64,000 bases of DNA from the NCBI GenBank assembly GCA_963829055.1, contig CAWHHI010000006.1:320001-384000 (forward strand). Direction: 5' to 3'. The stretch is from an uncultured Gemmatimonadaceae bacterium. GTDB taxonomy: Bacteria > Gemmatimonadota > Gemmatimonadetes > Gemmatimonadales > Gemmatimonadaceae. A model generated the notes under the pieces. It saw nothing but the letters and a program-made list of their open reading frames with translations. It was not told the DNA's origin and did no database searches. Each line of letters begins with the position of its first letter. Position 1 is the stretch's first letter. This document shows, in pieces, positions 333 to 63,114 of the stretch. The translations under genes were made by a program, and so were the position numbers.

Positions 333-1220
333 TCAGAGCGTACGTCGAAGTGCGCGCAACCGGTCGACCCGCGCTGGCAGCGCTCGCTCGAGGTCCGCCC
401 AGAGCGCATCCCAAAGCACCGTCAGTCGCTGGGACACATCCGGCGTTAGGCGTCCCGCTACTCGCACGCTTGCCGCTTCGTGAGTTGCGCGCGCATGATA
501 CGTGTTCAGCACGCTGCCCGCCGCCTCTTCCTCGGTCGAGGAGAGTCCAACCGCGGTGCGCAGGACCATCAGATGATAGTCGCCGACGTCACCGGCGAGG
601 GCGAGTGCCCGAAGGGCATCTGGCGAGTTCGGTTCCGGAACCGATACACCTAGCCGTGCGAGCGGGAGCGACCAGTTGTTCGTGGCGAATACGCCGTCGG
701 GATTCTGCGACCAGATCCAGGCGTGCATGACGAACAGTCGCGGCGACGTCGCGTCACCGTCACTCGTACTCGTTCGGTGATGCGCGGTTGGAAGACTCTC
801 CTCGGCCACGCCTCCGTTGTGCTCGTGCCAGTCGGCGAACGCGGGCAGTGCTGGCGGCGGCTCGCGTCCGCTGACCAACCGCGTGTATCCGACCGCGACC
901 AGACGAGCGGCGCCGTCGATGGTCGCGTAGACCAGAACCGATGGCCGATCTGGCTCAAAGGTGTTCTCCCCGATGCGGGCCGCGCTGATCCAGTGCTCGC
1001 CCATTGTCGGAAACTCGACGCCGACGCGCTTGTACCCATCCGCAATGGCGGCGTCCTGCGACTGATACCGACGCGTGCCGTCGCGAGCCTTCGTGGTGAA
1101 TTGCTCCACCGCGGCCGTGGGATTCGACCGTGGGACGTCCTGACACGGGGCAGCGGCCGACGCGACCGTAATCGCGGCCATCGCCAGAGCGCTCTCTCTC
1201 CAACCTGAGTGGCGCGTCAT
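333..1220 (-). CDS. Secreted hypothetical protein with His/Trp-rich motifs (possible metal or heme binding)
   Basis: C-terminal part of ORF 333..1796. ATG at 1220 overlaps the upstream stop (ATGA). Signal-like N-terminus; motifs MGEHW, P.VLVY, WHEH, MHAWIW..NPDGVFA. Confidence 0.7.
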   Translation of the reverse strand: MTRHSGWRESALAMAAITVASAAAPCQDVPRSNPTAAVEQFTTKARDGTRRYQSQDAAIADGYKRVGVEFPTMGEHWISAARIGENTFEPDRPSVLVYATIDGAARLVAVGYTRLVSGREPPPALPAFADWHEHNGGVAEESLPTAHHRTSTSDGDATSPRLFVMHAWIWSQNPDGVFATNNWSLPLARLGVSVPEPNSPDALRALALAGDVGDYHLMVLRTAVGLSSTEEEAAGSVLNTYHARATHEAASVRVAGRLTPDVSQRLTVLWDALWADLERALPARVDRLRALRRTL

Positions 1221-1649
1221 GGTGTCGGCCGCGCGAGGTCGTCGGGGGTTTCCTGCTTCGAGGCCGTGAGCAACGTGGTCATCAGCGTTGGGGAGATGCC
1301 ATACGGGAATCGGCTCAGCAATCGGGCGCGATCGAGCATCTTGGCAGTCGGCTTCGGCCCCAGATTGACTGTACCCGCGCCGCCTACCGGCAGGATGACT
1401 CGGCTGACGTCGCCGAATCTCGCAATCCAGAATGCGGTCGTGTGCGAAGAGCACGTACCCGGAGTCATTGACCACGATGAGCTCACCCGTCTGCTCGCGC
1501 CCGTCACGCAACACGAGGGTGCTGAGAACCCCTCGCGCGGAGTGTGCTTGCGGAATGGATCGTGGAGACTTCGACGTCATGCAGGCAGTGGGGAACAGCG
1601 ACAGCATCAATAGCAGCGCGCCGAGCCTGAATACTCTCGAGGAGGTCAT
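1217..1649 (-). CDS. Small lipoprotein, frameshifted near 1430 (probable sequencing insertion)
   Basis: MTSSRVFRLGALLLMLSLFPTAC lipobox in one frame continues as WIARFGDVSRV... in ORF 1217..1507; ATGA overlaps at both ends. Confidence 0.65.
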
Positions 1650-8159: not shown

Positions 8160-9119
8160 ATGCCCCGAGCCTCTCGCCGCTCGCTCGTCGCGCGAGCCAT
8201 CCTCGCACTTGCCTCAACGCTTCCTGTCGCTGCAGACGGCCAAGCACCCAGTCCACCGCCGGTCATCGGTCACTGGGACCTGACAGTCACGGCTCCGGAC
8301 GGCGTCTACCCGTCATGGTTGGAGGTGACGGCGTCGGGGAACGGCGTGCTCGTAGGTCGGTTCGTGGGGCACTACGGCAGCGCACGCCCGATCGGACGTG
8401 TCGAGTTCGCGAATGGCGTTATGCGGTTCGCCGTTCCGCCGCAGTGGGAGCAAGGCACCGCCGACCTGCGCTTCGAGGCGAAGCTCGACGGCAGCCGACT
8501 CACCGGCGCGATCGTCAACCCGAACGGCGACAGGCACACGCTCGTCGCGTCGCGCGCGCCCAGCCTGCGACGCACGACCGCGCCCGCGTGGGGCACGCCG
8601 GTCGAGCTGTTCAACGGGAAGGACGTCGCTGGGTGGACGACACAGGGGAGCGGCGCGAGTCGCTGGCGCGTGGTGAACGGTGTCCTCACGAACACTGCCA
8701 GCGGCGCCAATCTCATGACGACGCGCCGCTTCGAGGACTTCAAGCTGCACCTGGAGTTTCGCTACCCGAAGGGCGGCAACAGTGGCGTGTACCTGCGCGG
8801 GCGTCACGAACTGCAGATCGAAGACAGTCCGGAGCGGGACTGGCCGGGCTTGCTGGATGTCGGCGCGATCTACGGCCTGGTGGCACCTAACGAGAACGTG
8901 GCGACCGGGCCCGGCACCTGGCAGACGTACGACATCACGCTCATCGGCCGCCGCGTGACGGTGGTGTTCAACGGGCACACGGTCATCGCCGACCAGGTCA
9001 TCCCCGGGATCACCGGCGGGGCGCTCGACAGCAACGAGGGCGAGCCTGGACCGCTCGTGCTGCAGGGAGACCATACGCCGGTGGAGTTCAGAAGCATCAG
9101 GCTGACGCCGGCGAAGTAG
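8160..9119 (+). CDS. Secreted DUF1080 (3-keto-disaccharide hydrolase family) protein
   Basis: LFNGKD..GW, F.DFKLHLEF, GNSGVYLRG, E.QI.D, WQTYDI, LQGDH..VEFRSI motifs; signal peptide. Confidence 0.88.
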   Translation: MPRASRRSLVARAILALASTLPVAADGQAPSPPPVIGHWDLTVTAPDGVYPSWLEVTASGNGVLVGRFVGHYGSARPIGRVEFANGVMRFAVPPQWEQGTADLRFEAKLDGSRLTGAIVNPNGDRHTLVASRAPSLRRTTAPAWGTPVELFNGKDVAGWTTQGSGASRWRVVNGVLTNTASGANLMTTRRFEDFKLHLEFRYPKGGNSGVYLRGRHELQIEDSPERDWPGLLDVGAIYGLVAPNENVATGPGTWQTYDITLIGRRVTVVFNGHTVIADQVIPGITGGALDSNEGEPGPLVLQGDHTPVEFRSIRLTPAK

Positions 9120-9249
9120 CGAACCCGCGGCCGGCGAGTTGCCGGAAAGACGCGAAAGCCGCCACGTGAGTGCGTTCTGCGTCCGACTCACGAGGAGCCG
9201 TTGATAGCAGACAATTCCGCCTAATCGGTTGTGCGTCTTACGTTCTCCA

Positions 9250-9732
9250 CTAGTGGCTCGGCGGCGCCAGGTTTCCACACGCGACGACCACATCAGGGTT
9301 GGCTGCCGACGCGGCGACCGTCACGAAGTAGTTACCCGTTGCCGGCGTGCTGAGGGCGACACTCGCTCCTGCCTCGCCCTTACCGTCATCCCCGATCTTC
9401 AGGGCCTTGTATGCCGTCGCCGGGCCGAACACACCTTCGTCGGCGCCGCACTGGCCATGGTGGACCTGCCACGGATGGACGCCCCCCGGCGTCGCGTTGG
9501 TGACGCTCAGAGATAGAGTGGTGGCGTCGATACTCTTGCCCGGCTGCATCGAGGCAGATCCGTTGATCTGCACCGCGCCGGCGAGTGAAGCCGGCGTTAC
9601 GAGCGTGCCACGCCAGCGAGTATTCAGATTCGCATCGCGACTTACCTCGCTTACCGGTTCGCGGTGAAACGGGTTGCAAGCGGCGAACACAACTATCGAC
9701 GTGACGAGTATTAGCGATTGACGGCGTTGCAT
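9250..9732 (-). CDS. Lipoprotein with Cu/Zn superoxide dismutase-like or CHRD-like fold
   Basis: AGGAGG RBS, lipobox VFAAC, HPWQVHHGQCG and VACGNL motifs. Confidence 0.7.
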   Translation of the reverse strand: MQRRQSLILVTSIVVFAACNPFHREPVSEVSRDANLNTRWRGTLVTPASLAGAVQINGSASMQPGKSIDATTLSLSVTNATPGGVHPWQVHHGQCGADEGVFGPATAYKALKIGDDGKGEAGASVALSTPATGNYFVTVAASAANPDVVVACGNLAPPSH

Positions 9733-9985
9733 GGTGACCTCCTGGAGATTCGGCCCCCCGGGCCGTAACGAGTCGGAATGCCGTGAGCGCCCACGAGCCA
9801 CTCGCGTATTGACCAACTGGATGATAGCATATGCAAGATATCATCCAACTGGTCAATAAGCGCAGTCCGGTGCCTCAGTCGCGCAGCGTGGCGTACTCAG
9901 CAGTTGCGGCTGGACGCGCTCTCTGCATCGCGTCGCTGGATGAGTCGCGATAGGTTGGTCCAGAGCCCCCACCTGGAGAACCAAG

Positions 9986-12645
9986 CTGCGAATCGCACGC
10001 CTCATCGCACTCCTTGTCGTAGCCGTCGGCGCCGGTTGTCGCGCGGGGAGCAGCGCACCGGCTGCCGCGCCGTCCGTCACCCAGCAGGCTGTCGCCACGT
10101 TCCCCGGCGACACCTGGCAACGCGTCGCAGACCCCACGCGTGCCGGCTGGAACAAGGCCGGGCTCGACTCCGTGCAGTCCCTGATCTCGCGCATGAACTC
10201 GAGCGCGATGGTGGTCGTCGAGCACGGCCGGATCGTCTACTCGTACGGCGATCTCACCGCGCAGAGCTACCTCGCATCCGTCCGGAAGAGCATCCTGTCG
10301 ATGCTCTATGGCATCGAGATCGCGCGGGGGCACATCGACACCTCCAAGACGCTCGCCACGCTCGGCATCGATGACCTCGGCGGGCTCCTTCCGCGCGAGA
10401 AGGAGGCGACGATCCAGGACTTGTTAGGCGCCCGCTCGGGCGTCTACCACATCGCGTCGTACGCCGGGGACTTCCTGGCCGAGGCGCCGCCGCGTGGATC
10501 GCAGAAGCATGGGACGTATCAGCTGTACTCCAACTGGGACTTCAACGCGCTCGGCACCATCTTCGAGCAGGAGACGAAACGGAATCTCTTCGACGCGCTC
10601 GAGCAGGAGATAGCGCGGCCGATCCAAATGCAGGACTTTCGGCGTGACCTGCAGAAGAAGGAAGGCGACTCGACGCGGTCGATTCACCCGGCGTACCCGA
10701 TCTTCCTGACGACGCGCGACATGGCCCGCATCGGGTTGCTGATGCTCCACAACGGCAACTGGAACGGAAAGCAGATCGTGCCGCGGGACTGGGTCGCCAA
10801 GTCCACCGGCATCATCACCCCAGCGGCGCAGCTCAACCCGTCGCGCATCAGGCGTGACCGCGTCGGGTACGGGTATCTCTGGTGGGTGTTCGACGGCCCG
10901 TGGAATACCGGGCCGTACGAGGGCGCGTACACCGGTATTGGCGCGATCGGGCAGTTCATCACGGTGATCCCGAAGCTCGACCTCGTCATCGCGCACAAGA
11001 CCATCCCGCGCGAGCCTGACAACCCGAGCGTGTCGCAGGGTGACTACTTCGCGCTGCTCGACCGCGTCATCGCCGCACGCACCGGCGCCATGCCGCAGCC
11101 GAAGCAGCCGGCGCTCGCTCCCTATGATCTGCTGATCACGAACGCCCGTATCATCGACGGGACGGGTACTCCAGCGGTTTCTGGTGACGTCGCGATCGTC
11201 GGGCCGCGCATCGTCCGGGTGTCGACGACACCGCTGCCCCGAGACTCCGCGCTGCGCGTGATCGACGCTCGTGGTCACGTGCTGTCGCCGGGCTTCATCG
11301 ACATGCACGCGCACCTCGAGCCGCTGTTGAACATGCCGGACGCCCAGAGCGCAGCGCGTCAGGGCGTGACGTTGGCGTTAGGCGGCCCCGACGGCGGTGG
11401 ACCGTGGCCATTTGGCGCCTATCTCGACTCGGCTGATCGCGCGGGACTCGGTATCAACGTCGCGTATCTCACCGGGCACAACACGATCCGACGCGAAGTG
11501 ATGGGCACCGCGAACCGCGCGCCGACGCAGGCCGAGCTCGCGCGCATGACGGGGATGGTCGGGCAGGCCATGCACGAGGGCGCGTTCGGCATCAGCACCG
11601 GACTACGCTACATCCCCGGCTTCTACTCGAAGATCGACGAGGTGATCGCGCTGTCGAAAGTCGCCGCCGACTCCGGCGGCATCTACACGTCGCATCTTCG
11701 CGAAGAAGGACTCGGCCTGTTCGAGGGCGTTGGCGAGGCGCTGGAGATCGGGCGGCAAGCGCACATCCCGATCGTGCTCACGCATCACAAGGCGATCGGC
11801 CAGCAAATGTGGGGCAAGAGCTACCGTCACGCTTCACATGGTGGACTCTGCACGTGCCGCTGGTACCGATGTGATGATCGACCAGTACCCGTACACCGCG
11901 AGCTCGACGAGTCTCGACGTGCTCGTTCCGCCCTGGGCGCTGGAAGGCGGGCGGACCGAGCTCGCGAAGAAACTTCAGAATCCGGTGCTGAAGGATACCA
12001 TAACGCGAGGCGTGATCGACTACCTCGCTGAACGACCGCGGCGGTGGCGACATCAAGCGCGTGCAGTTCGCGAACGTCGCGTGGGACCACACGCTCGACG
12101 GCAAGACGCTCTACGATTGGGCCGTTCGCAAGGGCATTGCGCCGACGCCGCAGAAAGCGGCGCCGCTCGTGCTCGAAGGTGTCGTGAACGGCGGTGCGTC
12201 GATGGTCTTTCACGTCATCGATGAGGGAGACGTCAGGCGCATCATGGCGCACCCGATGACGATGATCGGGAGCGACGGGCGGCTGTCGCGGCCTGGCGAC
12301 GGTGTCCCGCACCCCCGCAACTACGGCACGTTCCCGCGCGTGTTCGGCGAGTACGTCCGCGTGCAGCACGTGCTCACGCTCGAGCAGGCGGTGCACAAGA
12401 TGACCGGGATGTCGGCCAAGCGGCTTGGTCTGGCGAATCGTGGGTGCATCCGTGCTGGCTGTTTCGCGGACATCACCGTCTTCGATCCCGCCACGATCGC
12501 CGACAAGGGGACGTTCACCCAGCCGCACCAGTATCCGGTCGGCATCGACTGGGTTATCGTGAACGGCACGCCAGTGGTTGCGGAGGGCAAGTTCACGGAG
12601 GCGCGGCCAGGTCGCGTTCTGCGACATTCTCCCTCACGAAACTGA
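9986..12645 (+). CDS. Serine hydrolase (beta-lactamase family) fused to N-acyl-D-amino-acid deacylase; lipoprotein; two +1 frameshifts (~11822, ~12027)
   Basis: SVRK and YSN motifs, then PGFIDMHAH, DQYPYTASST, GSDG and HPRNYGTFPR across ORFs 10172..12031, 11730..12224 and 12061..12645. The upstream in-frame lipobox suggests a CTG start at 9986. Confidence 0.85.
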
Positions 12646-12672
12646 ATCGGTATCGTCCAACGGAGGGAGCCG

Positions 12673-14869: not shown

Positions 14870-14889
14870 CGTCGCTTCGGTTGCCATCC

Positions 14890-51565: not shown

Positions 51566-51599
51566 GACCGGCTGCGTGCTTCCGTTTGCTCCCGGGCGG

Positions 51600-52547: not shown

Positions 52548-52773
52548 TGGTGCGGCGCTCGGGCGAGGGTAGTGCTACCGATCCCGCCTCGAGCGGCAAA
52601 TCCCGCACCCAAGGATGCGGGCGTCGCGCCAGAAGTCCGATCCGGGTGCGCCGCGCGTGTCCGCGCCGTCCGGTGAGGCCCTCGCGGACCATGGCCGATC
52701 CACCGTGTAACGCATTCGGGTGGCCCGCTCGCGGGCATGGCGAATGCGATTACTTGGGGCCCAAAGGAGCCCC

Positions 52774-53037
52774 ATGCCCCCGAGGCCGGACCGCCCGAAC
52801 GCGATGGACGAAGCCGCGCAACGCCTTGCCGCCGAAATGCCGGCGGCGGCGGGCCTGGGCTCGGCCGACGACGGGCGCATTGAGTTGGCGCAGTCGGTGG
52901 TTGCCGACATCGCCATCCGTCTCCGCCGCCTCGGGCTCCGCCTCTCTCACGACGATTTCGTCGCCCTGGTGCTCGAGTTGGCGCACGAACAACTGGTGGA
53001 CGGGGCAGCCGACGTCGACGCACGGCCCGGGAGCTAA
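52774..53037 (+). CDS. Small hypothetical protein, paralog of 52260..52547
   Basis: AAGGAG RBS; VVADIAIRLRRLGLRLSHDDFVALVLELAH. Confidence 0.62.
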   Translation: MPPRPDRPNAMDEAAQRLAAEMPAAAGLGSADDGRIELAQSVVADIAIRLRRLGLRLSHDDFVALVLELAHEQLVDGAADVDARPGS

Positions 53038-53041
53038 CGGT

Positions 53042-53275
53042 ATGGCGCTGCGCGAGCTCGAGGACGCATCGGGGTGCCGGTGGCAGGTGTGGGAGACCGC
53101 GCCCGCCAAGACTACTGGCCTCTCGGAACGCTATCGGGGTGGGTGGCTCACCTTCGACTGTGGCGCCGAGCGGCGCCGGTTAGCCCCGGTGCCCGCGGGA
53201 TGGGAGGCACTCCCGACCGAGCGGCTCCTCCTCCTGGTTCTTGCCGCGGAGCTGGTGCCCCGACGATTCGGCTAG
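53042..53275 (+). CDS. Small Trp-rich hypothetical protein
   Basis: MALRELEDASGCRWQVWET...GGWLTFDCGAERRRLAPVPAGWE; starts 4 nt after the previous stop. Confidence 0.7.
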   Translation: MALRELEDASGCRWQVWETAPAKTTGLSERYRGGWLTFDCGAERRRLAPVPAGWEALPTERLLLLVLAAELVPRRFG

Positions 53276-54252
53276 TCCGCCTTTCTCTTCGCGCGCCACG
53301 CGAGCACCGAGCGGCGTGCCGACGTCACCAGGCGAACCGGCGGAAAGGACACCACTCGAACCTGCGCGCGCAACAGAGCGACGGGGACTCCGTGCGCTTC
53401 CATGACGGACACGGTCTGGAGGGCAGCCTGCACGTTCCCTCGCGCGGCCGCGCTCAGCGCGAGATGGGCGACGTAGTTCCTGATGTACGCGGCAATCTCG
53501 CTCCGATATTCCGAGAGCTCGCCGGCCGCGACGCTCGGATTCGACAACACCCGGAAGTGCGACGCCGCGAAGTCCGCCGCGCTCGACGTCAGGCTGGAGT
53601 CGTGAACCCGGTAGTGCGCCACGACGTCTGTGACCGCGGCGACGTCGCCACGTGACGCGAACGTCAGCCTCTGTAGCAGGTCACAGACACTGCCGATCGC
53701 CTCGTCGTAGTACTCGCGCCGGTCCGGCGCGCCGATCGGAAACATGGTGCCCGCCAGTGTAACCGATCGCTCGCCGCGCAGGTGCGCACGGATGAAATCG
53801 GGCCCTCGTTCGACGTCCGGGCCCTGTCTCCTGGAGACCGCTCGAACGTCTCCGGCGCTGTTGATCACCGCGAACGCTCCGTACGCGAACTGCACGCCGG
53901 GCCGACGACAGGCACCGACGAGCAGCTCGACGGCCCGGGGCGTCAGAATATCGTCGTCGGAGACGAGCACGAAATAGTCGCCTCGGGCCGCGCGTAGCAG
54001 CGCGTTGAAGTTGCCGACCATGCCGAGGTTTCGCTCGTGCCGGATGGCGCGCAGTCGCGGTTCCGCCGCGCCGAGCTCACGCAGCAGGTCGGCGGTTCCG
54101 TCGGTGGACGCGTTGTCCCCCACGAGGATCTCGAGATGGGGATACGTTTGCGCGCGTATCGACTCCAGCGACTCGCGCACATAGGCGGCGCGGTTGAACG
54201 TCGGTACCGCGATGGTGACCATCGCGTTCGAGGAGTGATCGGCGGTCGCCAT
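53272..54252 (-). CDS. Glycosyltransferase family 2
   Basis: VTIAVPTFNR, GDNASTDGT, NLGMVGNFN, SDDD. Confidence 0.92.
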   Translation of the reverse strand: MATADHSSNAMVTIAVPTFNRAAYVRESLESIRAQTYPHLEILVGDNASTDGTADLLRELGAAEPRLRAIRHERNLGMVGNFNALLRAARGDYFVLVSDDDILTPRAVELLVGACRRPGVQFAYGAFAVINSAGDVRAVSRRQGPDVERGPDFIRAHLRGERSVTLAGTMFPIGAPDRREYYDEAIGSVCDLLQRLTFASRGDVAAVTDVVAHYRVHDSSLTSSAADFAASHFRVLSNPSVAAGELSEYRSEIAAYIRNYVAHLALSAAARGNVQAALQTVSVMEAHGVPVALLRAQVRVVSFPPVRLVTSARRSVLAWRAKRKAD

Positions 54253-54257
54253 CGTCG

Positions 54258-55790
54258 TTAGGCTCGGCCCATGGCTCGTCGCAACGTGTTGGCCGCGTCG
54301 ACGCGCTCGGCCGCCGTGAGTCCCGCCACCCAGACGAGCGGAATCGCGAGGACAGCCACGACCGCCAGCGTCGCGATGAGCGCGATCGGCGAGGACGACC
54401 CGCTTCGCAACAGCGCCCAGCGCAGACTGAGCGCGAATGCCGCGGTGACGAGAGCGACGCCGATGGACGGGGCCACCCACCGCACGTAGTCGCGGAGCGC
54501 TATGCCGAACAGCCGCATGCTGTACCGGGGCACGTACCAGTTGTTGGTGGCCAGCTGAGCGATCACCATGCCAGCCACGACGCCGGGGACGCCCCAGATG
54601 CGCGCCAGTGCGACGCCGAGCGCGATGGTCACCACGCCGGACAGAATCGCGACGCGCAGAAATACGATTCGTCCCGTCGCCATGACGGCGATGGCGTGCA
54701 CCACGTGGTGGGCTTCGAGCACGTACAGGAAGAGCAGCAGCCACAGACTCGTGTAGCCGACGAAGTTCTGGCTGCCGACCCAGGCGGCGATGATCTCCCG
54801 GCCGAGCACGCCTACCACCGCCGCGCCGACACAGAGGAGCGTCGTCACCTTTCGCAGCGTCAGCCGAAGCATCTCGGTCACGCCACGCGTGTCACTGGCC
54901 GCAACCGTCGACGAAATGAACGGCTCGATGACCTGCGCCGGCATGAGCGCGATGATGTACAGCGTCTCCGCGAGCTGCCTCGCCACGACGAACTGCGGAA
55001 CCGATTCGACGGAGACCTGCGATGCCACGATCAATGGCGCGCTGGCCAGGATGAGCGCGCCTCCCAGGTTAGTGCCCGCCCACTGCAGGCTCGGTCCTAT
55101 CATTCTCCGCGCAAGCGCGTGGTCGTACGCTGTGGGCGCTCGCAGCTCGGGCCTCAGGTGCCTAACGAGCGGAATGGCGGCCAGGAGCAGCACGTTCTGA
55201 GTAGCCCACGCTGCCGCGAAGCCGACCAGCCCGAACCCGCTAAAACCGGCCAGCGCCGCGAGCCCGGTACCCATCATGTACGCCATCGCGCGCGCGAGCC
55301 GCTGCAGGCTCACCATTCCCCACCCGGATGCGACGGCGAACGCGTGACCGGCGAAGATGCTCGCCGCCGAGCCACCGACGAAGAGCCACCAGGCGGTCCG
55401 CCGGGATGCATTCCACTCGAGGCCCCCGAACCGGGGCAGTACGAGCCAACCTAACGATCCTCCGACGACGAGCACGATCGCGACGAGGACCAGGTACAGC
55501 CGCAGCGACGTCCAGTACACATCGCGGGCGCTCGTGCCCGCGTCGGCCTGACCCCCGCGCGCGAACGCCGTGAGCCGCGTGACGGTCGGCCCGAGACCGA
55601 CATCGAAGAGGTTCACGTAGGCGATCAGGCCGATCAGCACCATCCAGAACCCGGCCTCGTCGCGCGGCAGGAATGACAGGACGAGCAGCGTGTACATCGG
55701 GCCAAGCACGATGGACACGCCGATCTGAAACCATCCGGCGAAGATCCCGCGTGCGATCGCTCGCGCGGCCCCGTGCTTTCGATCAGCCAC
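54258..55790 (-). CDS. Wzx-like oligosaccharide flippase
   Basis: 12 or more TM segments, FDVGLGPTVTR; located in a polysaccharide cluster; start uncertain. Confidence 0.82.
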   Translation of the reverse strand: MADRKHGAARAIARGIFAGWFQIGVSIVLGPMYTLLVLSFLPRDEAGFWMVLIGLIAYVNLFDVGLGPTVTRLTAFARGGQADAGTSARDVYWTSLRLYLVLVAIVLVVGGSLGWLVLPRFGGLEWNASRRTAWWLFVGGSAASIFAGHAFAVASGWGMVSLQRLARAMAYMMGTGLAALAGFSGFGLVGFAAAWATQNVLLLAAIPLVRHLRPELRAPTAYDHALARRMIGPSLQWAGTNLGGALILASAPLIVASQVSVESVPQFVVARQLAETLYIIALMPAQVIEPFISSTVAASDTRGVTEMLRLTLRKVTTLLCVGAAVVGVLGREIIAAWVGSQNFVGYTSLWLLLFLYVLEAHHVVHAIAVMATGRIVFLRVAILSGVVTIALGVALARIWGVPGVVAGMVIAQLATNNWYVPRYSMRLFGIALRDYVRWVAPSIGVALVTAAFALSLRWALLRSGSSSPIALIATLAVVAVLAIPLVWVAGLTAAERVDAANTLRRAMGRA

Positions 55791-55803
55791 GATCAGCCCC
55801 GAA

Positions 55804-56703
55804 TCAACTATTGGCGAGGCTGCGAAGCCCGTCCGCGAGCGGCACAGCGGGCCGCCAGCCGGGAAGTGGATCACCCGTCCAGGGGACCATCACCTCCCGA
55901 TCACGATATGGACGTCCTCCCCAGACGACGTCCACGCGGCGCCCGGTGACGGAGGAGTAGAGCTCGACGACCTCTCGCAGCGTGTACCTCCGCGCCGCGG
56001 GTACCGCGAACGACTCGCTCGAGTCGACGTCGCTGCTTCCTGCCCGTCGTGCGGCCACGAGGAGCGCGTCGACGACGTCGTCGACGTGCACGAGGTCGAG
56101 CAGCTGCTCGCCCGGTGACATCTGGAGCGGCACACCGGTCTCGCTCGCGCGGTGCAGCACGGTGAAGAGTTTCTGTCTCCGGTCGCCAGGGCCGTAGGTG
56201 TCGAAGAGCTTCAGTGTCACGGCTCGTAACGTGGACGCAGCGGTGAAGTACGCCAGAAGATCCTGGACCGCCTGCTTCGTCGCGGCGTAGAGGTTCACCG
56301 GTCGCGCGGGTGCGCCTGTCTGGTGCTGCCAGCCGGTGCCCACGTTCACGAGTCGGCGGTTGCCCGCGCCCGCGAGCGCGTCGAAGAGCTGCGCCGAGAA
56401 CAGTACGTTGTCGTCGATCAGGCCAGCGATGTCGTCGGGGCCGTGCTGGGCCACGAACCGCGCCGCGAGATGGAAGGTCACGTCCGGCTTGGCGCGACGC
56501 ACGACGTCGGCGAGTGCCGCCGTGGTTCCGTCATGGAGTACCGGTCGGACGCCTTCCGGCAGCAGACGCGTATCCGTCGTCGGTCGGACGACCGCGACGA
56601 CCGTGGCTCCTCGCGCTACCAGTCGCGCCGCCAGGTGCGTCCCGATGAATCCGGTAGCGCCGGTAATGAGGGCGGTGCTCCCCGTCAGATCACCGTTATC
56701 CAT
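55804..56703 (-). CDS. NAD-dependent epimerase/dehydratase (CDP-abequose/paratose synthase-like)
   Basis: ITGATGFIG, FHLAA, PVNLYAATK, LFDTYGPGD.R.KL. Confidence 0.85.
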   Translation of the reverse strand: MDNGDLTGSTALITGATGFIGTHLAARLVARGATVVAVVRPTTDTRLLPEGVRPVLHDGTTAALADVVRRAKPDVTFHLAARFVAQHGPDDIAGLIDDNVLFSAQLFDALAGAGNRRLVNVGTGWQHQTGAPARPVNLYAATKQAVQDLLAYFTAASTLRAVTLKLFDTYGPGDRRQKLFTVLHRASETGVPLQMSPGEQLLDLVHVDDVVDALLVAARRAGSSDVDSSESFAVPAARRYTLREVVELYSSVTGRRVDVVWGGRPYRDREVMVPWTGDPLPGWRPAVPLADGLRSLANS

Positions 56704-57310
56704 CCGCTGGGTCGGCGAACTCGAACGGGGTCACGAACTCCTCCAGGGCGGGGAGCATTGCGTCTCGTGCGGACACGATCGGACTGCGGCCCGGCCATTC
56801 CATACCGAAGCTGTCCCAGCGTACGCCGCTGTCGTGCTGTGGCGAGTGAACGCTCGTGACCAGGTATCCGAGAATGCTCCGGTCGCTCGTGGCGCAAAAG
56901 CCGTGGGCGACGCCGGGCGGGATGTAGAGCCCCCGTGGCACCGACTCGTCGAGCTCCAGGGAGACGTGCTTGCCATAGGTCGGCGAGCCCCGTCGCAGGT
57001 CGAGCAGCACGTCGACCATCGTGCCGGCGACGCACCAGACGACCTTCGCCTGCTCACTGGGCGGAAGCTGGAGGTGCATCCCGCGGATCGCACCACGCCG
57101 AGAGGTGGTGTAGAACGCCTCGGCGAAATCGTGCTCGAGGCCGCACGCTGCGTAACTCGGCGCGTGGAAGAACTTCACGAATCGACCGCGCTCGTCGTCG
57201 GCTACGCGCGGCACGACCTCGAGGCAGCCCGGAAGGCCCGTCGGGGCGAAGGCGATCGGAAACGTGGTGGCCGGATGGCGGCTCGCGCCCGGCGCAGCGA
57301 GGCCAGCCAT
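56696..57310 (-). CDS. rfbC: dTDP-4-dehydrorhamnose 3,5-epimerase family
   Basis: DERGRF, IRGMHLQ, K.V.C..G...DV.LDLR.GSPTYG, GVAHGF, S.RD. Confidence 0.9.
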   Translation of the reverse strand: MAGLAAPGASRHPATTFPIAFAPTGLPGCLEVVPRVADDERGRFVKFFHAPSYAACGLEHDFAEAFYTTSRRGAIRGMHLQLPPSEQAKVVWCVAGTMVDVLLDLRRGSPTYGKHVSLELDESVPRGLYIPPGVAHGFCATSDRSILGYLVTSVHSPQHDSGVRWDSFGMEWPGRSPIVSARDAMLPALEEFVTPFEFADPADG

Positions 57311-57550
57311 CAGACGGTCGATCTCCTGGAGCTCAATTCCGCCCTCGTGCAGCAAGAGTGCATGGCGCTCGGATACCTAATAGCTGTGCTCGTCATAGTT
57401 GTGCAGAGATATGGCAAAGCCGACTCACAAGGTAACCTGGACACACGCGTCAGCGCGTACGCGCCAGGCTGACCCGCCGTGCTGCCGTGTCCGCTCGCGC
57501 GATTCGCCTGTCGGCGTTAGGTTGGCGCCGCCCAATAACCCGAGCGTCTC

Positions 57551-57748
57551 ATGTCGCTTACCCCCGAGCAATGCCGGGCACTCGTCGACGCGATCACGGT
57601 CGCCGGCTCGGCCGACGCCCTGGAGGAATTGCGCCGGATGTTCGAGCGCGAGCAGGGGCCGGCCGTGCCGGGCGGCTTTCTCGAACTGCTGATCGACGTC
57701 CGGCACTCGAAGCTGGGACAGCCGCGGGACCGGGGGCGCGTGTCGTAG
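57551..57748 (+). CDS. Small hypothetical protein
   Basis: 65-aa ORF with high-GC3 codon usage and an amphipathic helical pattern. Confidence 0.45.
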   Translation: MSLTPEQCRALVDAITVAGSADALEELRRMFEREQGPAVPGGFLELLIDVRHSKLGQPRDRGRVS

Positions 57749-57873
57749 CCGCCCCCCAAGGAGCTCGGCCGCGAGGCGGCACTCGACGGCGCCTGTCGCG
57801 CGCCGTAGGATCAGAGATCGCAGAGCTGACCGCGCGGCCTATCTCATCACCACCGGCGGACGACCGCCGAATC

Positions 57874-58092
57874 ATGCCTGGCTCGCAGAGCGAGTTCGAA
57901 CGGCTCGTCTTCGAGATCGCGTCGTCGACGTCGACCGCAGACCTTCGCGCGCTACGCGACTACGTCCGCGAGGCGTTCGCTGGCGATGCGCATCTACGAG
58001 ACCTCGACGAGCGCATCACCCATCGCGAGCAGCTCGTGGCGAGCGCCGAGGGGTTGATCGACGACGTCCGCCACCCGCGGCGCGACGATTGA
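57874..58092 (+). CDS. Small hypothetical protein
   Basis: MPGSQSEFERLVFEIASSTSTADLRALRDYVREAF...; good codon bias. Confidence 0.55.
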   Translation: MPGSQSEFERLVFEIASSTSTADLRALRDYVREAFAGDAHLRDLDERITHREQLVASAEGLIDDVRHPRRDD

Positions 58093-58109
58093 GACGCTTC
58101 GGTGTGGCG

Positions 58110-58198
58110 AGTGGAATGCGAGTGAGCTGTTGATAGCAGGCGATTCCGGCCAATACGGCCTGCATCGCCTGCTATGAACAGTTCACGCTCGCTCCACT
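58110..58198. repeat. Long imperfect hairpin between convergent genes
   Basis: gtgagctgttgatagcaggcgat ... atcgcctgctatgaacagttcac. Confidence 0.7.
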
Positions 58199-58688
58199 AG
58201 GTGGCGCGATTCCGTAAGGCACGGGTCACGGCGCGGTCGAAGGCCGACGCGAACGCCTGCTTGTCCTTGGCCGAATATGCCCGTGGTCCTCCCGTCTCCA
58301 CACCGGCGGTGCGAAGCGCGTCAGCGAAGTCTCTCACACTGAGTCGTTCGCCTACGGTCTCGGTCGTGTGCTCATAGCCTCGCGGGTCGATCACGGTCAC
58401 GCGCGCTGCCACGAGGATCGCCGCCAGCGGAATGTCCGCCGTGATCGCGATATCGCCTGATCTCGCGTTCTCCGCGATGTAGCGGTCTGCGGCGTCGGGA
58501 CTCCCCTCGACCCGGACAGCGGTGATCATCGGATGGCCCAGCGGGATCTGCGCCCGCTGATTCGCGACGATGATCGTCTCCAGCGTCAGTCTGTGTGCCG
58601 CGCGATAGACGATGTCCTTCACGTCGCGCGGCGTTGCGTCGCCGTCGAGCCAGATCCGCGTCACACTCCCTGTCACGGGGCCTGTCAC
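58197..58688 (-). CDS. YaiI/YqxD (DUF188) family protein
   Basis: IWLDGDATP, DAAD.YI, ITADIPLAA, DPRG, TGGP; start either 58688 (GTGA overlap) or 58664. Confidence 0.9.
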   Translation of the reverse strand: MTGPVTGSVTRIWLDGDATPRDVKDIVYRAAHRLTLETIIVANQRAQIPLGHPMITAVRVEGSPDAADRYIAENARSGDIAITADIPLAAILVAARVTVIDPRGYEHTTETVGERLSVRDFADALRTAGVETGGPRAYSAKDKQAFASAFDRAVTRALRNRAT

Positions 58689-61141
58689 GTGCCCTTCGAG
58701 GGCTTCGCCATCACGGTCGGGTCGAGCTTCATCGTTCTCGCCGCATCGGCGAAGCGCGGATCCGTGCGGATCCCGTCGAATAGCGGTGCATTGATGGACA
58801 TCGCGTAGAGCCAGGGATCCTTCTCTCGCGCGCCGCGCTCGAGCCAGTCCAGCGCCTTCTCGCGCTCGTCGAGTCCGGCGTAGCCCATCGCCATCGCGAT
58901 CGGTGACCCGCCACGGCCGTTTGCGCGCGCTTCCGCCGGCGCGAGCACGGCCCGGGCACTGTCGGCCTTGCCGCTCTTCGCGAGCGCGAACGCGAGCGAT
59001 CCCACGAGCGGGTCGATTCCCTGGCCGAGCCTGACGGCGCGCTGGAAACCCGCCGCGGCCGCGGGATACTCGCCGGCGAACAGGCGCGTGAATGCGAGAA
59101 ACGCGTGGCCGATCCACAGCGTCGAGTCCAACTCTACCGCGCGTTGTCCCGCGAGCATCCCTTCCTGATACCTGCCCGCGAGGCCGAGCGTGTAGCCCAA
59201 CTCGGCGTTGATCACCGGTGACAGCGGCTCGAGATCGCGTGCACGCTCGAGCTCCTTGACGGCTTCGCGCACACGCCCGGTGATGATCAGCACTTCGGAG
59301 TACCACTGGTGGCCCGTCGCGTAGTTGCTGTCGAGCGCGAGGCCGCGGCGGAACTCGGTGGCCGCCGGTTCCCAGTCACCGGTGCTCTTGAGGATCAGGC
59401 CTAACGTCGTGTGCGCCTCGGCCACCGTGCTATCGAGCGCCAGTGCACGCTCGGCTGCCTTGCGCGCGAGCGGGTACGCGCTGTCGGCGGGCGTGGTGCC
59501 GTAGATCGGCATGAGGCCGAGCGCGTCGGCGAGACCGGCGTAGGCGCGGGCGAACGTGGGATCGCGTTCGATGGCCTGACCGAAGTAGTCCGCGGCGCGA
59601 TGCAGCGCGTCGTTTCCACGCTGATGGAAGAAGTAGCGTCCGCGTAGATAGAGGTCGTAAGCGACGAGATCCTCGGTGCCGGCGAGTGCAGTGCCTGGGG
59701 TTCCGGCTTTCTGGCCGGCAGGCGCAGGGGCGAGCGCGACGCGCAGTGCGCCCGCGATGCTACCCGCGATGTCGTCCTGCACCTGGAAGACATCCTTCAT
59801 CTGGCGCTCGTACGTGTCCGACCAGAGCGCGAGATTGTCGTTCGCGTTCGTGAGTTGCGCGGTGACGCGGAGGCGATCGCCGGAGCGGCGGATCGTGCCC
59901 TCGAGCAGGCTCGATACCTTGAGTGTCTTCGCGATCTGCGTTGCGTCCATTCCCTTGCTCTTGAGCGCGAACACGGATGTCCGCGACGCAACACGCAGTC
60001 CCGGGATCTTGCCGAGCGCGCTCGTGAGCTCGTCGGTGATGCCTTCGCTGAAGTACCGGTCGCTGTCGCTGCCGCCGACGTTCTCGAGTGGCAGTACGGC
60101 GACCGAGCGCGGTGAGGCAGCGTCCGTCGATGCGGTACCACGATCGCCGCGTCGGGACAGGAACAGCGCGGCTGTCGTCGCGATGATGAACAGCGCCGCG
60201 AACGTGACGGCGAGGATCGTCCTGTTCGTCTTCGGTGCGACGGCTGGAACGGGCGCAGTACGGCCTAACGTGGAAGAGCCGCTCGATACCAGCGCCTGGT
60301 CGAGCCCGTGCACGAGCTCGGTAGCTGTCTGCGGACGCTTCGATGGGTCCTTCTCGAGGCATCGTCGCACGAGATCGACGAGCGGCACCGGCGCGTCTGG
60401 CCGCGCCACGGACAGCAGCGGCGGCACCTCCGTCATCTGCGCCGCGAGCAAGGCGGCCGGAGCACGGCCCGCGAATGGCGGGACGCCGGCGAACAGCTCG
60501 TAGGCCATGATGCCGAACGAATAAATGTCGGCACGATGGTCGGTGCTGGGGTCGGCCGCGGCCTGCTCGGGCGCCATGTAGAGCGGCGTGCCTAACGAGA
60601 AACCGATCTGCGTGAGCGACCCACCGGGCGCCGAGGTTCCCTCGCGCGCCGACGAGATGGCTTTCGCGACGCCGAAGTCGGTGACGACGGCGGCACCGCC
60701 CGACAGCAGTACGTTGTCGGGCTTGATATCGCGATGGACGATGCCGCGCTCGTGCGCATAGGCGAGCGCCACGGCAACGTCGCGCAGAATGTTCGCGCCG
60801 TCGGCGATCGACACTTTCGTCCCGGCCTTCAGCAGGTCGCGGAGCGAACGTCCTTCGACGAACGGCATCGTGAAGAACGGGACGCCGTCCGCTTCGCCCG
60901 CGGTGATGACGGGGACGATGTGTGGATTCTGCAGCCGAGCGACGAGCTGGATCTCGCGATGGAAGCGATCGAGGCTGACGCCGCCGGCGACATCGGGCGG
61001 GAGCAGCTTGATCACGACCTGGCGGTCGAGCCGGCGCTCGGTGGCGAGAAAGACGTGACTCATCCCTCCGCCGCCGAGCTCGCGCTCGATGGCGTATGCG
61101 TCACCGAGTGCGACCTGGAGTCGCTCGCGGAGCTCGGTCAT
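58685..61141 (-). CDS. Ser/Thr kinase with TM, TolB-like domain and TPR repeats
   Basis: ELGGGGMS, HRDIKPDN, DFGVAK, YMAPEQ; SVAVLPL.N...YFSEGITDE; AYDLYLRGR; TPRs. Confidence 0.95.
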   Translation of the reverse strand: MTELRERLQVALGDAYAIERELGGGGMSHVFLATERRLDRQVVIKLLPPDVAGGVSLDRFHREIQLVARLQNPHIVPVITAGEADGVPFFTMPFVEGRSLRDLLKAGTKVSIADGANILRDVAVALAYAHERGIVHRDIKPDNVLLSGGAAVVTDFGVAKAISSAREGTSAPGGSLTQIGFSLGTPLYMAPEQAAADPSTDHRADIYSFGIMAYELFAGVPPFAGRAPAALLAAQMTEVPPLLSVARPDAPVPLVDLVRRCLEKDPSKRPQTATELVHGLDQALVSSGSSTLGRTAPVPAVAPKTNRTILAVTFAALFIIATTAALFLSRRGDRGTASTDAASPRSVAVLPLENVGGSDSDRYFSEGITDELTSALGKIPGLRVASRTSVFALKSKGMDATQIAKTLKVSSLLEGTIRRSGDRLRVTAQLTNANDNLALWSDTYERQMKDVFQVQDDIAGSIAGALRVALAPAPAGQKAGTPGTALAGTEDLVAYDLYLRGRYFFHQRGNDALHRAADYFGQAIERDPTFARAYAGLADALGLMPIYGTTPADSAYPLARKAAERALALDSTVAEAHTTLGLILKSTGDWEPAATEFRRGLALDSNYATGHQWYSEVLIITGRVREAVKELERARDLEPLSPVINAELGYTLGLAGRYQEGMLAGQRAVELDSTLWIGHAFLAFTRLFAGEYPAAAAGFQRAVRLGQGIDPLVGSLAFALAKSGKADSARAVLAPAEARANGRGGSPIAMAMGYAGLDEREKALDWLERGAREKDPWLYAMSINAPLFDGIRTDPRFADAARTMKLDPTVMAKPSKGT

Positions 61142-61144
61142 GGG

Positions 61145-61420
61145 GGGACAGGAGGGAACAGGGAACCGGGAACTGCAGGAGCTGGTAGCTGGTCGCTCGT
61201 GCTGGTCGCTGGTCGCGGTCGCATTGAGAGCGAACGGCAGCGAGGGGTCTTCTCGAACGCCAACGTGGCCGGTCTGGCCACGAGTACTTCACGGAAGATC
61301 CCTCGCTGCGCTCGGGATGACAACCGCGCTCGGGATGACACCGCGCTCGGTATGCGTCCGCCGTCCGCCATCCGCCGTCCGCCCTCCGACGGCCTCCTTC
61401 CTTCGGCCTCCTTCCTAAGG
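61145..61420. repeat. Mosaic of heptamer repeats and a REP-like CGCTCGGGATGAC element
   Basis: gggaaca/gggaacc, gctggtc repeats, agatccctcgctgcgctcgggatgac, ccgtccg repeats. Confidence 0.75.
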
Positions 61421-61422
61421 CC

Positions 61423-63114
61423 TCAAATCGACTTCGACTTCACGAGCGCCGTGATGCGATCCGCGGCGCGGAAGGCGAGGGCCTGGATCGTCATCGTCGG
61501 CTGGCCGCGACCGGACGTGACGAAGCTGCTCCCGTCGCAGATGAACAGGTTCGGCACGTCATGCGCGCGGTGATCCGCGTTCACCACCGAAGTCCGCGCG
61601 TCGTTGCCCATGCGGCATGTGCCGAGGAGGTGTGGGCCGCCGCCGTCAGGCCCACCGCCGTCGCCCGCGACGCTCACGGCGCCGGCCGCCTGGAGCAGGT
61701 CGCGGCCTTTGTCACCGAACCAGGCGCCGAGCTTCTCGTCGTTAGGGTGGCCGGTGAACGTTAGGCGTGGCGCGGGGAGACCCCAGGCGTCCTTCAGCTT
61801 CGGGTCGAGATCCATCCGGTTGTTCGGCGTCGGCAGGCTGCTGAGATGGCCGTAGACGGCGAGACGCTTCGTGAAGTAATCGCGCGCGCGCTTCTTCCAC
61901 GCGCTGCCCCAGGTCGGCTCGTCGGGCCACGTCGCCTCACCGCTCAGCGGTGTGAACCCGCAGCGGAAATCGAATCCGCCACCGCCGTAGATCCCGAGTG
62001 ATCGCGGGAGCTCGTACGTGTCCCACACGACGCGCGACACGACCGCTCCCTTCCACCCGTTGATCTCGTGCTCGAACAGGCCGTCGCGAAGCGCGCTGCC
62101 GTTGAACATGATGTTCCGGCCGACCTGCCCGCTCGAGTTCGCGAGCCCGTCGGGGAACGCGCTCGTCGCCGACATGAGCAGCAGCTTCGGCGTCTCGCAT
62201 CCGTTGGCCGAGAGGATGACGGCCTTCGCGCGCTGCATGACCTCCGCTTTGCTCTTGTCGAAGTACGTCACGCCGGTGACTCGGCCGCTCGTGTTCGTCT
62301 CGACCTTGCGGACGTAGCTGAACGGCCGGATCTCGCAGCGGTTCGTCGCGACGGCTTCGGGGATCATCGAGACGAGCGAGCTCGATTTCGCGCGCACCTC
62401 GCACGCGGCGCCGATGCAGATGCCGCACGCCACGCAGCCCGAGCGTCCACGATAGGGCCGCGAGAGGATCGCCATCGGCGCCGGCCACGGATGCATGCCG
62501 AGCTTTTTCGCGCCGCGCTCGAGCAGAACGCCTTCGGACTTGATCGGCAGTGGAGGGAGCGGGAACGGCTTGCTGCGTGGCGGCTCGAACGGATTTCCCG
62601 CGAGCCCCGAGACGCCGATCTCCCACTCGACCTTCGTGTAGTACGGCTCGAGGTCCGCATAACGAATCGGCCAGTCCGCGATGGTCGAATCGTCAGGCAC
62701 GCCGAACCGCGTCGCCTGCTCGAACTCGAGCTCCGGGAAGCGCCAGAAGTTCGCCGTGAAGTGCACCGTGCCGCCACCCACGACACGACCGTAGTTGTTC
62801 CACCCGCTCGGCTTCGCTTCGTCCTTGTCCGTCTTTCGGCGCGTGCCCGGCTGATCCTTGTTGTTGTTCGTGAGGGCTTTGTCGGGATGAACGAGGCCCC
62901 AGAAATCGTCGTGCCCGAAATCGCGTTCCGTGAGCCACGGGCCCTGCTCCAGTACGACGACGGAGAAGCCGTTGCGCGAGAGCTCTCGCGCCAGCACGGC
63001 ACCGGCGGCGCCCGAGCCGACGATGACGAAGTCGACTTCATCGGACGGCCGATACGTTCGCATCGGCGACTGCAGGCGCTTCGGTTCGTCGGGGTGATGT
63101 GGGTGATGGCTCAT
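61423..63114 (-). CDS. GMC family oxidoreductase (gluconate 2-dehydrogenase alpha-like)
   Basis: IVGSGAAG, VGGGTVH, CVACGIC...C, HLLGTCRMG, PTMTIQALA. Confidence 0.93.
   Translation of the reverse strand: MSHHPHHPDEPKRLQSPMRTYRPSDEVDFVIVGSGAAGAVLARELSRNGFSVVVLEQGPWLTERDFGHDDFWGLVHPDKALTNNNKDQPGTRRKTDKDEAKPSGWNNYGRVVGGGTVHFTANFWRFPELEFEQATRFGVPDDSTIADWPIRYADLEPYYTKVEWEIGVSGLAGNPFEPPRSKPFPLPPLPIKSEGVLLERGAKKLGMHPWPAPMAILSRPYRGRSGCVACGICIGAACEVRAKSSSLVSMIPEAVATNRCEIRPFSYVRKVETNTSGRVTGVTYFDKSKAEVMQRAKAVILSANGCETPKLLLMSATSAFPDGLANSSGQVGRNIMFNGSALRDGLFEHEINGWKGAVVSRVVWDTYELPRSLGIYGGGGFDFRCGFTPLSGEATWPDEPTWGSAWKKRARDYFTKRLAVYGHLSSLPTPNNRMDLDPKLKDAWGLPAPRLTFTGHPNDEKLGAWFGDKGRDLLQAAGAVSVAGDGGGPDGGGPHLLGTCRMGNDARTSVVNADHRAHDVPNLFICDGSSFVTSGRGQPTMTIQALAFRAADRITALVKSKSI

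What the first reader, a model, noticed from the sequence alone, without database searches (positions are those of the whole stretch)
444..61765. Pervasive non-palindromic heptamer CCTAACG/CGTTAGG at ~1 per kb, embedded in genes: candidate uncharacterised DNA-uptake or chromosome-marking signal
Seen: at least 59 exact copies counted by eye, 30 CCTAACG (e.g. 2660, 4485, 5774, 7434, 8886, 13015, 19150, 23186, 27000, 32227, 49694, 55161, 60591) and 29 CGTTAGG (e.g. 444, 5066, 5231, 11376, 17754, 24259, 30292, 36442, 41946, 49533, 61759). There are also about 5 CCTAACA/TGTTAGG variants, and the most common extension is GCCTAACG. A rough mononucleotide estimate at ~68% GC gives only about 7 copies, and TA-containing words are otherwise scarce here. 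Most copies lie inside ORFs in all four non-stop frames, forcing codons rare at this GC: CCT-AAC (PN), CTA-ACG (LT), TTA-GGN (LG), GTT-AGG (VR). The two stop frames appear only at true gene ends (14867 TAA, 46056 TAG, 54258), which argues against a base-calling artefact and against selection on protein sequence. Established: DUS/USS in Neisseria/Pasteurellaceae and HIP1 in cyanobacteria show this frame-independent, intragenic pattern, whereas Chi and KOPS are strand-polarised, which this motif is not. Inference: a lineage-specific signal maintained at DNA level (uptake sequence, methylation- or repair-driven iteration, or a nucleoid protein site). I do not know of it being described for Gemmatimonadota.
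Basis: partly seen in the sequence, partly recalled or inferred. Interest (0 to 1): 0.88.

Follow-up and report, generated by a model that had tools for sequence, protein, structure and literature searches.

The report
Self-spacing DNA tag in soil bacteria
A group of soil bacteria has written one eight-letter DNA word, identical to the cutting site of integron gene cassettes, into thousands of places in its genes without changing most proteins, and the copies keep a few hundred bases apart, which is how DNA-uptake tags of a few human-associated bacteria behave and may mean that these bacteria recognise the DNA they import.

Summary
Confirmed and genome-wide. The window holds 59 CCTAACG (3.2 expected); the 7.78-Mb genome holds 6,391, on both strands alike. 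The word is an 8-mer, (G>A)CCTAACG, with weaker forms GCATAACG and GCCTAACA. It is written by silent codon and stop-codon choice (3,943 in genes against about 300 after synonymous shuffling), also at the same rpoB/rpoC codons in distant genera. New here: copies exclude each other over about 350 bp in any orientation (a permissive site is used at 6% when another copy lies within 50 bp, 51% beyond 400 bp); the weak forms obey the same rule; it recurs in other species. The trait is patchy within one Gemmatimonadota order, with dialects, and was not seen in 102 genomes of other orders. Its reverse, CGTTAGGC, is the crossover box of these bacteria's integron attC sites, yet only 31 copies lie in attC, and neither integrase nor attC number follows the trait. 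No shared methylase, no strand polarity. Not found in the searched literature; an earlier unchecked scan note reached a like reading.

The parts
444..61765 (.). 59 dispersed copies of the core CCTAACG/CGTTAGG (43 as GCCTAACG, 11 as ACCTAACG); + strand: 2660, 4485, 5774, 7434, 8886, 13015, 14865, 15979, 19150, 20025, 20357, 20757, 23186, 23872, 27000, 27903, 30973, 32227, 35520, 38291, 42445, 47160, 49694, 50362, 51062, 55161, 55450, 59400, 60264, 60591; - strand: 444, 5066, 5231, 6967, 11376, 13511, 17754, 19655, 24259, 28459, 29291, 30292, 30394, 31388, 36114, 36442, 36986, 39680, 41946, 45562, 46053, 46115, 46975, 49533, 51393, 54256, 57515, 61740, 61759
14865..14871 (+). copy that supplies the TAA stop of the MATE transporter gene 13517-14869
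46053..46059 (-). copy that supplies the TAG stop of the gene 44622-46058 (+)
54256..54262 (-). copy that supplies the TAA stop of the gene 54258-55790 (-)
15979..15985 (+). in-gene copy (Pro-Asn frame, ABC permease gene) shared at the same codons by 5 of 7 genomes of the genus; the other two encode another residue pair
   Evidence: (column 615)
29291..29297 (-). copy read as TGTTAGG (the weaker working form) in contigs of two independent public runs
   Evidence: table 3, row 29291 C>T in X1 and X3
8417..63317 (.). six copies of the weaker working form GCATAACG (8417, 26710, 31753, 32630, 62657, 63310)
   Evidence: shown to avoid main copies genome-wide
10422..51320 (.). five copies of the weaker working form GCCTAACA (10422, 15309, 17346, 18256, 51313)
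   Evidence: shown to avoid main copies genome-wide

Best explanation
The 8-mer is an uptake or post-uptake recognition tag that spreads by molecular drive. Shown: something favours fixation of the word about 400-fold wherever it is tolerated, reads it on either strand with graded affinity, and counts one copy per few hundred bases as enough. Inferred: a sequence-specific step in natural transformation (binding at the pilus or membrane, or protection and integration after entry) prefers short DNA pieces that carry the word; alleles that create a copy recombine in more often; a second copy on the same short piece adds little, which gives the exclusion zone of about 350 bp. The strength varies between lineages with how often they transform.
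For: Density 0.82/kb, both strands equal on all 20 contigs. Silent route: TTA is used at 1259 of 2820 Leu codons in NCG-Leu-GGC against 25 of 13891 in the control context; 860 of 1129 G-Pro-Asn-G contexts carry the word; 143 of 149 CGT-stop-GC ends use TAG. Orthologous genes hold 94 copies in 127 kb from 11 high genomes and 1 in 155 kb from 15 low genomes, without indels. Use of a permissive site rises from 22 of 373 (<50 bp from another copy) to 762 of 1503 (400-600 bp); pair correlation 0.24, 0.32, 0.45, 0.55, 0.74, 0.82, 0.95 per 50 bp, then flat, alike for all orientations; repeated in 60 pooled loci of other species. Highest density where constraint is lowest (short convergent gaps 5-6/kb, divergent gaps 0.5/kb). 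Dialects between lineages, as for DUS. ComEC, DprA and type IV pilus genes are present. In H. influenzae a second USS within 100 bp adds no uptake (PMC7811141, section 19).
Against: No receptor found: ComEA, DprA and pilins occur in high and low genomes alike and ComEA shows no mark of the high group; in this assembly the ComEA-like match lies in an 81-residue open frame only. No terminator-type inverted pairs (1 and 3 pairs within 20 bp), no flank preference beyond one base, a shorter core than DUS/USS. Peptide distortion is clear only for Pro-Asn (1.38; others 1.03-1.05). A toy fragment model gave the ramp only with a weaker bias than the codon data imply. Competence was never shown for these bacteria here. 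Selection for a protein-loading site predicts the same spacing. The match to the integron box is not explained by uptake as such.
Confidence: 0.45

Rival explanations
1. The reader is the integron integrase (or a protein of that fold): it binds or nicks single crossover boxes in the chromosome or in incoming DNA and so biases which allele is kept.
For: The word is the attC crossover box with its neighbouring base: 16 of 25 attC sites of this genome end CGTTAGGC, 20 of 23 listed for the low-count genome G021 end GTTAGGC. All dialects seen (GTTAGGC, GTTAGGT, GTTATGC, GTTAGAC, TGTTAGGC) are attC box forms. Integrases act at genomic sites (bioRxiv 10.1101/2022.09.11.507474) and on transformed single-stranded DNA (PMC12614218).
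Against: Integrase is found in 9 of 11 high and 13 of 19 low genomes; those of high genomes form no clade. attC counts do not differ (median 12 in 11 high, 11 in 25 low genomes; at most 82 scored per genome). In G299 5 of 16 attC ends are GTTAGAC and 3 of 16 GTTAGGC, but the genome has 4539 CCTAACG and 52 GTCTAACG. The published genomic target is only GWT. This genome's full-length integrase lacks the usual catalytic Lys and first His and a second copy is truncated. No scars or indels at in-gene copies.
Confidence: 0.2
2. The word is the loading or anchoring site of a chromosome-binding protein that spreads or slides over a few hundred bases; each well-spaced site is weakly selected.
For: Orientation-free exclusion over about 350 bp and graded variants fit a spreading footprint; some phage contigs carry the word at host-like density inside head and tail genes; HIP1 has been read this way (PMC5861425).
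Against: No coverage rule: 28 gaps exceed 6.4 kb and the gap spread is near random overall; no period at 10.5 bp or at 5-150 kb; density varies 400-fold between related genera; no candidate protein.
Confidence: 0.17
3. A methylase plus methyl-directed repair ratchets near-matches into the word (Elhai-type model for HIP1), and an existing site directs repair nearby, suppressing new ones.
For: Most one-base neighbours are below Markov expectation; fourfold-site G+C is slightly higher near copies (0.845 against 0.82).
Against: No methylase family shared by high genomes: PF01555 0 of 3 high, PF00145 0 of 4 high, PF02384 none in G000, PF02086 2 of 4 high. The word is not a palindrome and has graded variants. 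G000 is 86% complete, and BREX/Eco57I-type families were not searched.
Confidence: 0.08
4. A self mark for a nuclease-helicase or defence system (Chi-like).
For: Non-palindromic 8-mer; carried by some phages.
Against: No polarity to replication (721/793 in G-rich and 1157/1138 in C-rich windows), whereas KOPS-like words are polar in the same contigs; opposite-facing copies exclude each other as much as same-facing ones; long empty gaps exist.
Confidence: 0.07
5. Artefact of sequencing, codon bias or protein sequence.
For: The assembly has frameshift-type errors (rpoB split).
Against:: codon-preserving null beaten 12-fold, same codons in independent assemblies, none in foreign contig ends of the same assembly.
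Confidence: 0.01

Closest known systems
DNA uptake sequences: USS of Pasteurellaceae and DUS of Neisseriaceae
   Same: About one copy per kb, both strands, inside genes with frame bias, made by point changes, dialects between lineages, a second nearby copy redundant (PMC7811141, PMC2817400, PMC1939737; passages read).
   Different: Other phylum and sequence; 8-bp core without flank motif; no terminator pairs; a much sharper short-range exclusion by my estimate; patchy inside one order; equals an integron box; no receptor or uptake bias shown.
HIP1 (GCGATCGC) of cyanobacteria
   Same: Hyper-abundant octamer in coding and non-coding DNA, kept against codon preference, function unsettled (PMC5861425).
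   Different: Not a palindrome; no shared methylase found; no period of tens of kb seen in 5-kb bins.
Integron attC crossover box (R box; consensus GTTRRRY/RYYYAAC recalled, AAC cleavage triplet read) and attG sites
   Same: Identical sequence including the base before GTT; variants fall in the same set.
   Different: 6,360 of 6,391 copies lie outside the attC sites found, with no L box or hairpin; published attG consensus is only GWT; no relation to integrase or attC number.
Chi and KOPS
   Same: Non-palindromic octamers enriched in a chromosome (recalled).
   Different: No replication polarity; redundancy does not depend on orientation.

Membership tests
DUS/USS uptake sequences | Hundreds to thousands of copies, about 1 per kb, both strands | tested here: met
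   6,391 in 7.78 Mb, 3154/3237
DUS/USS uptake sequences | Accumulates in coding DNA by point change, with frame bias and peptide enrichment | tested here: met
   3,943 in genes against 291-336 in 5 synonymous shuffles; four frames 1143/759/1541/500; Pro-Asn 1.38-fold, other dipeptides 1.03-1.05
DUS/USS uptake sequences | Rare in recently acquired DNA | tested here: inconclusive
   Absent from foreign contig ends, which look like mis-joined DNA, not true islands; Spearman -0.20 between density and tetranucleotide distance over 381 windows
DUS/USS uptake sequences | Competence machinery encoded | tested here: met
   ComEC, DprA, pilins and pilus operon; also present in low genomes
DUS/USS uptake sequences | A sequence-specific receptor (ComP; ComN predicted) | tested here: inconclusive
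   No candidate from ComEA comparison or pilin counts; minor pilins were not compared residue by residue
DUS/USS uptake sequences | Close inverted pairs serving as terminators | tested here: not met
   1 head-to-head and 3 tail-to-tail pairs within 20 bp
DUS/USS uptake sequences | Measured uptake preference | not testable with these tools
   needs a competent isolate
HIP1-type iterated palindrome | Palindrome | tested here: not met
   GCCTAACG/CGTTAGGC
HIP1-type iterated palindrome | Co-occurring orphan methylase | tested here: not met
   four Pfam families in five genomes each; other families not searched
HIP1-type iterated palindrome | Period of tens of kb | tested here: inconclusive
   no oscillation in 5-kb autocorrelation on 7 contigs; fragmented genome, simpler method than the paper's
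Chi/KOPS | Polarity to the replication direction | tested here: not met
   KOPS-like control polar
Integron attC site | Crossover box GTTRRRY | tested here: met
Integron attC site | Paired R''/L''...L'/R' hairpin behind a gene | tested here: not met
   31 of 6,391 copies lie in the 25 covariance-model hits; about 11 of 6,391 have a strong attC arm upstream
Integron attG site | Used as insertion target by the integrase | tested here: inconclusive
   10 of 13 run-terminal attC end GTTAGGC against 6 of 12 internal ones (counted); empty sites could not be identified
Xer dif half-site | Matches the arms of this genome's dif | tested here: not met
   dif-like site at C16:560789, at the skew switch, has other arms

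The most novel reading that the evidence does not exclude
A third, independently evolved family of uptake sequences, in which the competence machinery of some Gemmatimonadales reads the integron crossover box itself. The cell would thereby harvest cassette DNA from any soil neighbour, and its own chromosome (and some of its phages) fills with the box as a by-product, one copy per short fragment. This would join natural transformation to cassette capture at the level of DNA recognition and make the exclusion length a record of the size of DNA that soil bacteria integrate.
Probability: 0.25. Interest if true: 0.92.

Novelty: new variant of a known kind. Interest (0 to 1): 0.8.

Why it matters
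Genome-wide tags of this strength are known from few groups (uptake sequences in two families, HIP1 in cyanobacteria). This one lies in an abundant soil phylum, has arisen or been lost several times among close genera (natural on/off contrasts such as G235 and G292 against G288), comes in dialects, and has a measurable interaction length. It also distorts codon statistics (59% of TTA codons) and can serve as a binning and host-assignment mark.

Tried and rejected
Maximal-order Markov ranking hid the word because its sub-words are inflated too. Rfam: nothing in the window or at the integron. Xer half-site idea: rejected. 'Dead integrase as reader': degenerate integrases occur in a low genome too; no stand-alone integrase N-terminal domain tracks the trait (the extra hit in G000 is a truncated second integrase). 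'Perfect box protects genes from cassette insertion': density is highest outside genes. Lower density near the terminus (45-63 per 100 kb on C16) did not persist clearly as a lower use of permissive sites (0.40-0.60 along C16); nine windows of G299 were uninformative. Compensatory turnover between neighbouring columns in orthologues: too few pairs (3 observed, 4.0 expected within 150 bp). Exclusion could not be judged in G299, G235/G292, G014 or phage samples alone (65-158 pairs, noisy). Host of the motif-rich phages: a portal protein found only 29-43% matches in 5 of 201 genomes of the family, no link made. Ad hoc attC finders were unreliable and were replaced by a covariance model. Laying four runs showed only 40 of 778 differences, so conservation at motif bases could not be counted. 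A spacing calibration on a USS-bearing genome was not obtained; HIP1 counts in one cyanobacterium were not used further. G211 (0.11/kb) has low G+C and is probably not a carrier.
Full report
Observation. The window has 59 exact CCTAACG/CGTTAGG (30/29) against 3.18 in 100 dinucleotide shuffles. 45 of 59 lie in genes as I called them, 3 form stop codons, 11 lie outside called genes. The genes are ordinary (kinases, permeases, citrate synthases, a sulfatase) and Rfam finds nothing. The window is C6:320001-384000 of a 7.78-Mb, 20-contig assembly.

The word. Genome-wide there are 6,391 copies (3154/3237), 0.64-1.09 per kb on every contig, 26-fold over an order-2 Markov model; GCCTAACG (5,004) is the top 8-mer at 49-fold. 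Use of permissive codon contexts shows no consistent flank preference beyond the base before the core, G over A. The working set can be read off the spacing: GCATAACG, GCCTAACA and ACCTAACG lie within 200 bp of a main copy in 14-15% of cases against 30.6% for random positions, whereas GCCGAACG, GCCCAACG, GCCTGACG, GCCTCACG and GCCTACCG do not avoid it (29-33%).

It is kept at DNA level. 3,943 copies lie in called genes against 291-336 in five within-gene synonymous shuffles; 59% of TTA and 21% of CTA codons and 264 of 808 TAA stops belong to the word. In NCG-Leu-GGC, TTA:CTC is 1259:1163; in the control NCG-Leu-G(not G) it is 25:9669, a bias of about 400-fold. Stop codons follow: GCC-stop-CG uses TAA in 179 of 245, CGT-stop-GC uses TAG in 143 of 149. 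Density is highest where constraint is least: 5-6 per kb in convergent gaps under 100 bp, 0.5 per kb in divergent gaps of 100-300 bp. In 21 orthologue alignments, 11 high genomes hold 94 copies in 127 kb and 15 low genomes 1 in 155 kb; in rpoB the same Ala-Leu-Gly codons read GCG TTA GGx in six distant carriers where the others have CTC, CTG or CTT. Two motif-free stretches (C6:5440-55038, C11:1-44054) are compositionally foreign and hold second copies of housekeeping genes at 32-67% identity, so they are probably mis-joined DNA; they show that the sequencing method does not make the word. Contigs of four independent runs cover the window stretch at about 98-99% identity; among the 40 of 778 differences shown, one touches a copy and turns it into the weaker working form.

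Copies exclude each other. Gaps under 100 bp number 149 against 509 expected, under 200 bp 408 against 977; 30 control heptamers of like abundance give 1.02-1.66 times expectation. The chance that a permissive in-gene site carries the word is 0.06, 0.12, 0.24, 0.37, 0.46, 0.51 for a nearest copy at <50, 50-100, 100-200, 200-300, 300-400, 400-600 bp, in all four frames. The pair correlation climbs from 0.24 to 0.95 over 350 bp and is then flat, for same-facing, head-to-head and tail-to-tail pairs, with no 10.5-bp phase and no oscillation at 5-150 kb. Sixty pooled loci from other species give 0.21, 0.24, 0.45, 0.64, 0.72 (the selecting pair was removed). There is no polarity to replication.

Distribution. 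All 7 genomes of the genus carry 0.48-0.89 per kb and G014 1.77. Among 301 genomes drawn across the phylum, 4 exceed 0.5 per kb (G000, G235, G292, G299), 10 lie at 0.1-0.3, and none of the 102 from other orders exceeds 0.06. G288 is low though filed in the genus of G235 and G292. On an RpoB tree of 35 genomes carriers do not form one clade (quick tree, several forks open). Mid-level carriers in the two other families have dispersed, in-gene copies. Dialects: GCATAACG is about a tenth of the main form in genus g1 and G014, near zero in G235, G292 and G299, and of like size in G030, G071 and G253; GTCTAACG is raised in G235 and G292 (164, 213). Unpublished genomes G013, G078, G117 and G198 enter only as low rows in these tallies. 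Of 55 viral contigs from a like scan, six carry 0.58-0.83 further copies per kb; three of them encode head or tail proteins at those places, one nearly complete phage has 29 in 44 kb, and one of the six loses its excess over the whole record (9 in 70 kb). Their hosts are not known.

The integron link. In low genomes, runs of hits at 600-bp spacing are attC ends; 20 of 23 listed for G021 end GTTAGGC. This genome has XerC, XerD and an integron integrase with a cassette array behind it. A covariance model finds 25 attC sites at E<0.01 (one weaker hit dropped); 16 end CGTTAGGC, and they hold 31 of the 6,391 copies. So the word is the crossover box, but the copies are not attC sites. Integrase occurs in 9 of 11 high and 13 of 19 low genomes, without a clade of carriers; attC numbers are alike (medians 12 and 11, capped at 82, model trained partly on G299, G021 and G000); and G299's commonest attC end, GTTAGAC, is not spread in its genome. 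Published genomic targets share only GWT (bioRxiv 10.1101/2022.09.11.507474; parts 1 and 5 of 6 and passages). Cassettes are excised from transformed single-stranded DNA in Vibrio (PMC12614218; abstract and passages), which makes a tie between uptake and cassette ends plausible but does not show one here.

Mechanism. A fixation bias that acts on both strands, inside and outside genes, with graded variants and a one-copy-is-enough range, is what biased uptake of short fragments followed by recombination would leave. For H. influenzae a second USS within 100 bp adds no uptake, and 23% of USS lie within 100 bp of another but 17% within 30 bp (PMC7811141, passages and section 19); the drive model of Maughan et al. 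is cited there and was not read. Peptide enrichment and rarity in transferred genes are from PMC2817400 (passages), even spacing from PMC1939737 (passages). The genome encodes ComEC, DprA and a pilus, but so do low genomes, and no receptor was found. I put this at 0.45, the integrase as reader at 0.2, a spreading chromosome protein at 0.17, a methylase ratchet at 0.08 (no shared methylase; HIP1 passages from PMC5861425; PMC4390886 seen only in a listing) and a Chi-like mark at 0.07. Shown: enrichment, silent origin, working variants, exclusion, patchy range, identity with the attC box.

Novelty. Full-text searches found no description: CCTAACG as a word gives one unrelated paper, GCCTAACG none, Gemmatimonad with overrepresented and octamer none; listings showed none; PMC8618304 only lists the phylum as having integrons (one passage). 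The library lacks most subscription papers and no supplement was read, so a mention in a table of oligomer surveys is not excluded. An earlier unchecked note of this scan reports the same word, the DUS likeness and the attC match in another genome; it is not independent support. It works like an uptake sequence but fails two family marks (terminator pairs, longer core) and membership cannot be shown without an uptake assay; I rate it a new variant of a known kind, interest 0.8.

Noticed in passing
window 15339-15460, 30552-30710, 63776-63920: A 120-160 bp palindromic repeat with TGTCATTCCGAGC ends; 470 such ends in the genome. It resembles the Ssn-related motifs of PMC11893778 (search pattern read); no Ssn gene was looked for.
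   Followed up: partly
G000 C6:5440-55038, C6:600000-620000, C11:1-44054: Motif-free, compositionally foreign contig ends; the first and third hold second copies of housekeeping genes: probable chimeric joins.
   Followed up: partly
L001:10009-10986 (G000 C20:208009-208986, -): Integron integrase lacking the usual catalytic Lys and first His, with its cassette array downstream on the same strand; similarly degenerate copies in G288 and G293.
   Followed up: partly
G000 C20:103000-207300, C10:178000-190300, C9:55600-210300: 24 of 25 attC sites lie scattered among ordinary genes over these stretches, and all 25 are on one strand of their contigs: a dispersed array or many secondary insertions.
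   Followed up: partly
G299 C2:815000-857000: A large homogeneous cassette array, at least 60 attC sites in about 40 kb, and a second cluster at C1:687600-691800.
   Followed up: no
G000 C16:560789-560818: dif-like site exactly at the maximum of cumulative GC skew, 20 kb from xerD.
   Followed up: no
L258, L227, L207, L232 (viral records G318-G321): Phage contigs with the word at host-like density; it may serve as a host-assignment mark.
   Followed up: partly
window 22241-24682: Two divergent citrate synthase-family genes, one with an N-terminal helix-turn-helix domain.
   Followed up: no
L195 (unnamed short locus): 16 copies of the heptamer in 892 bases, probably a tandem repeat.
   Followed up: no
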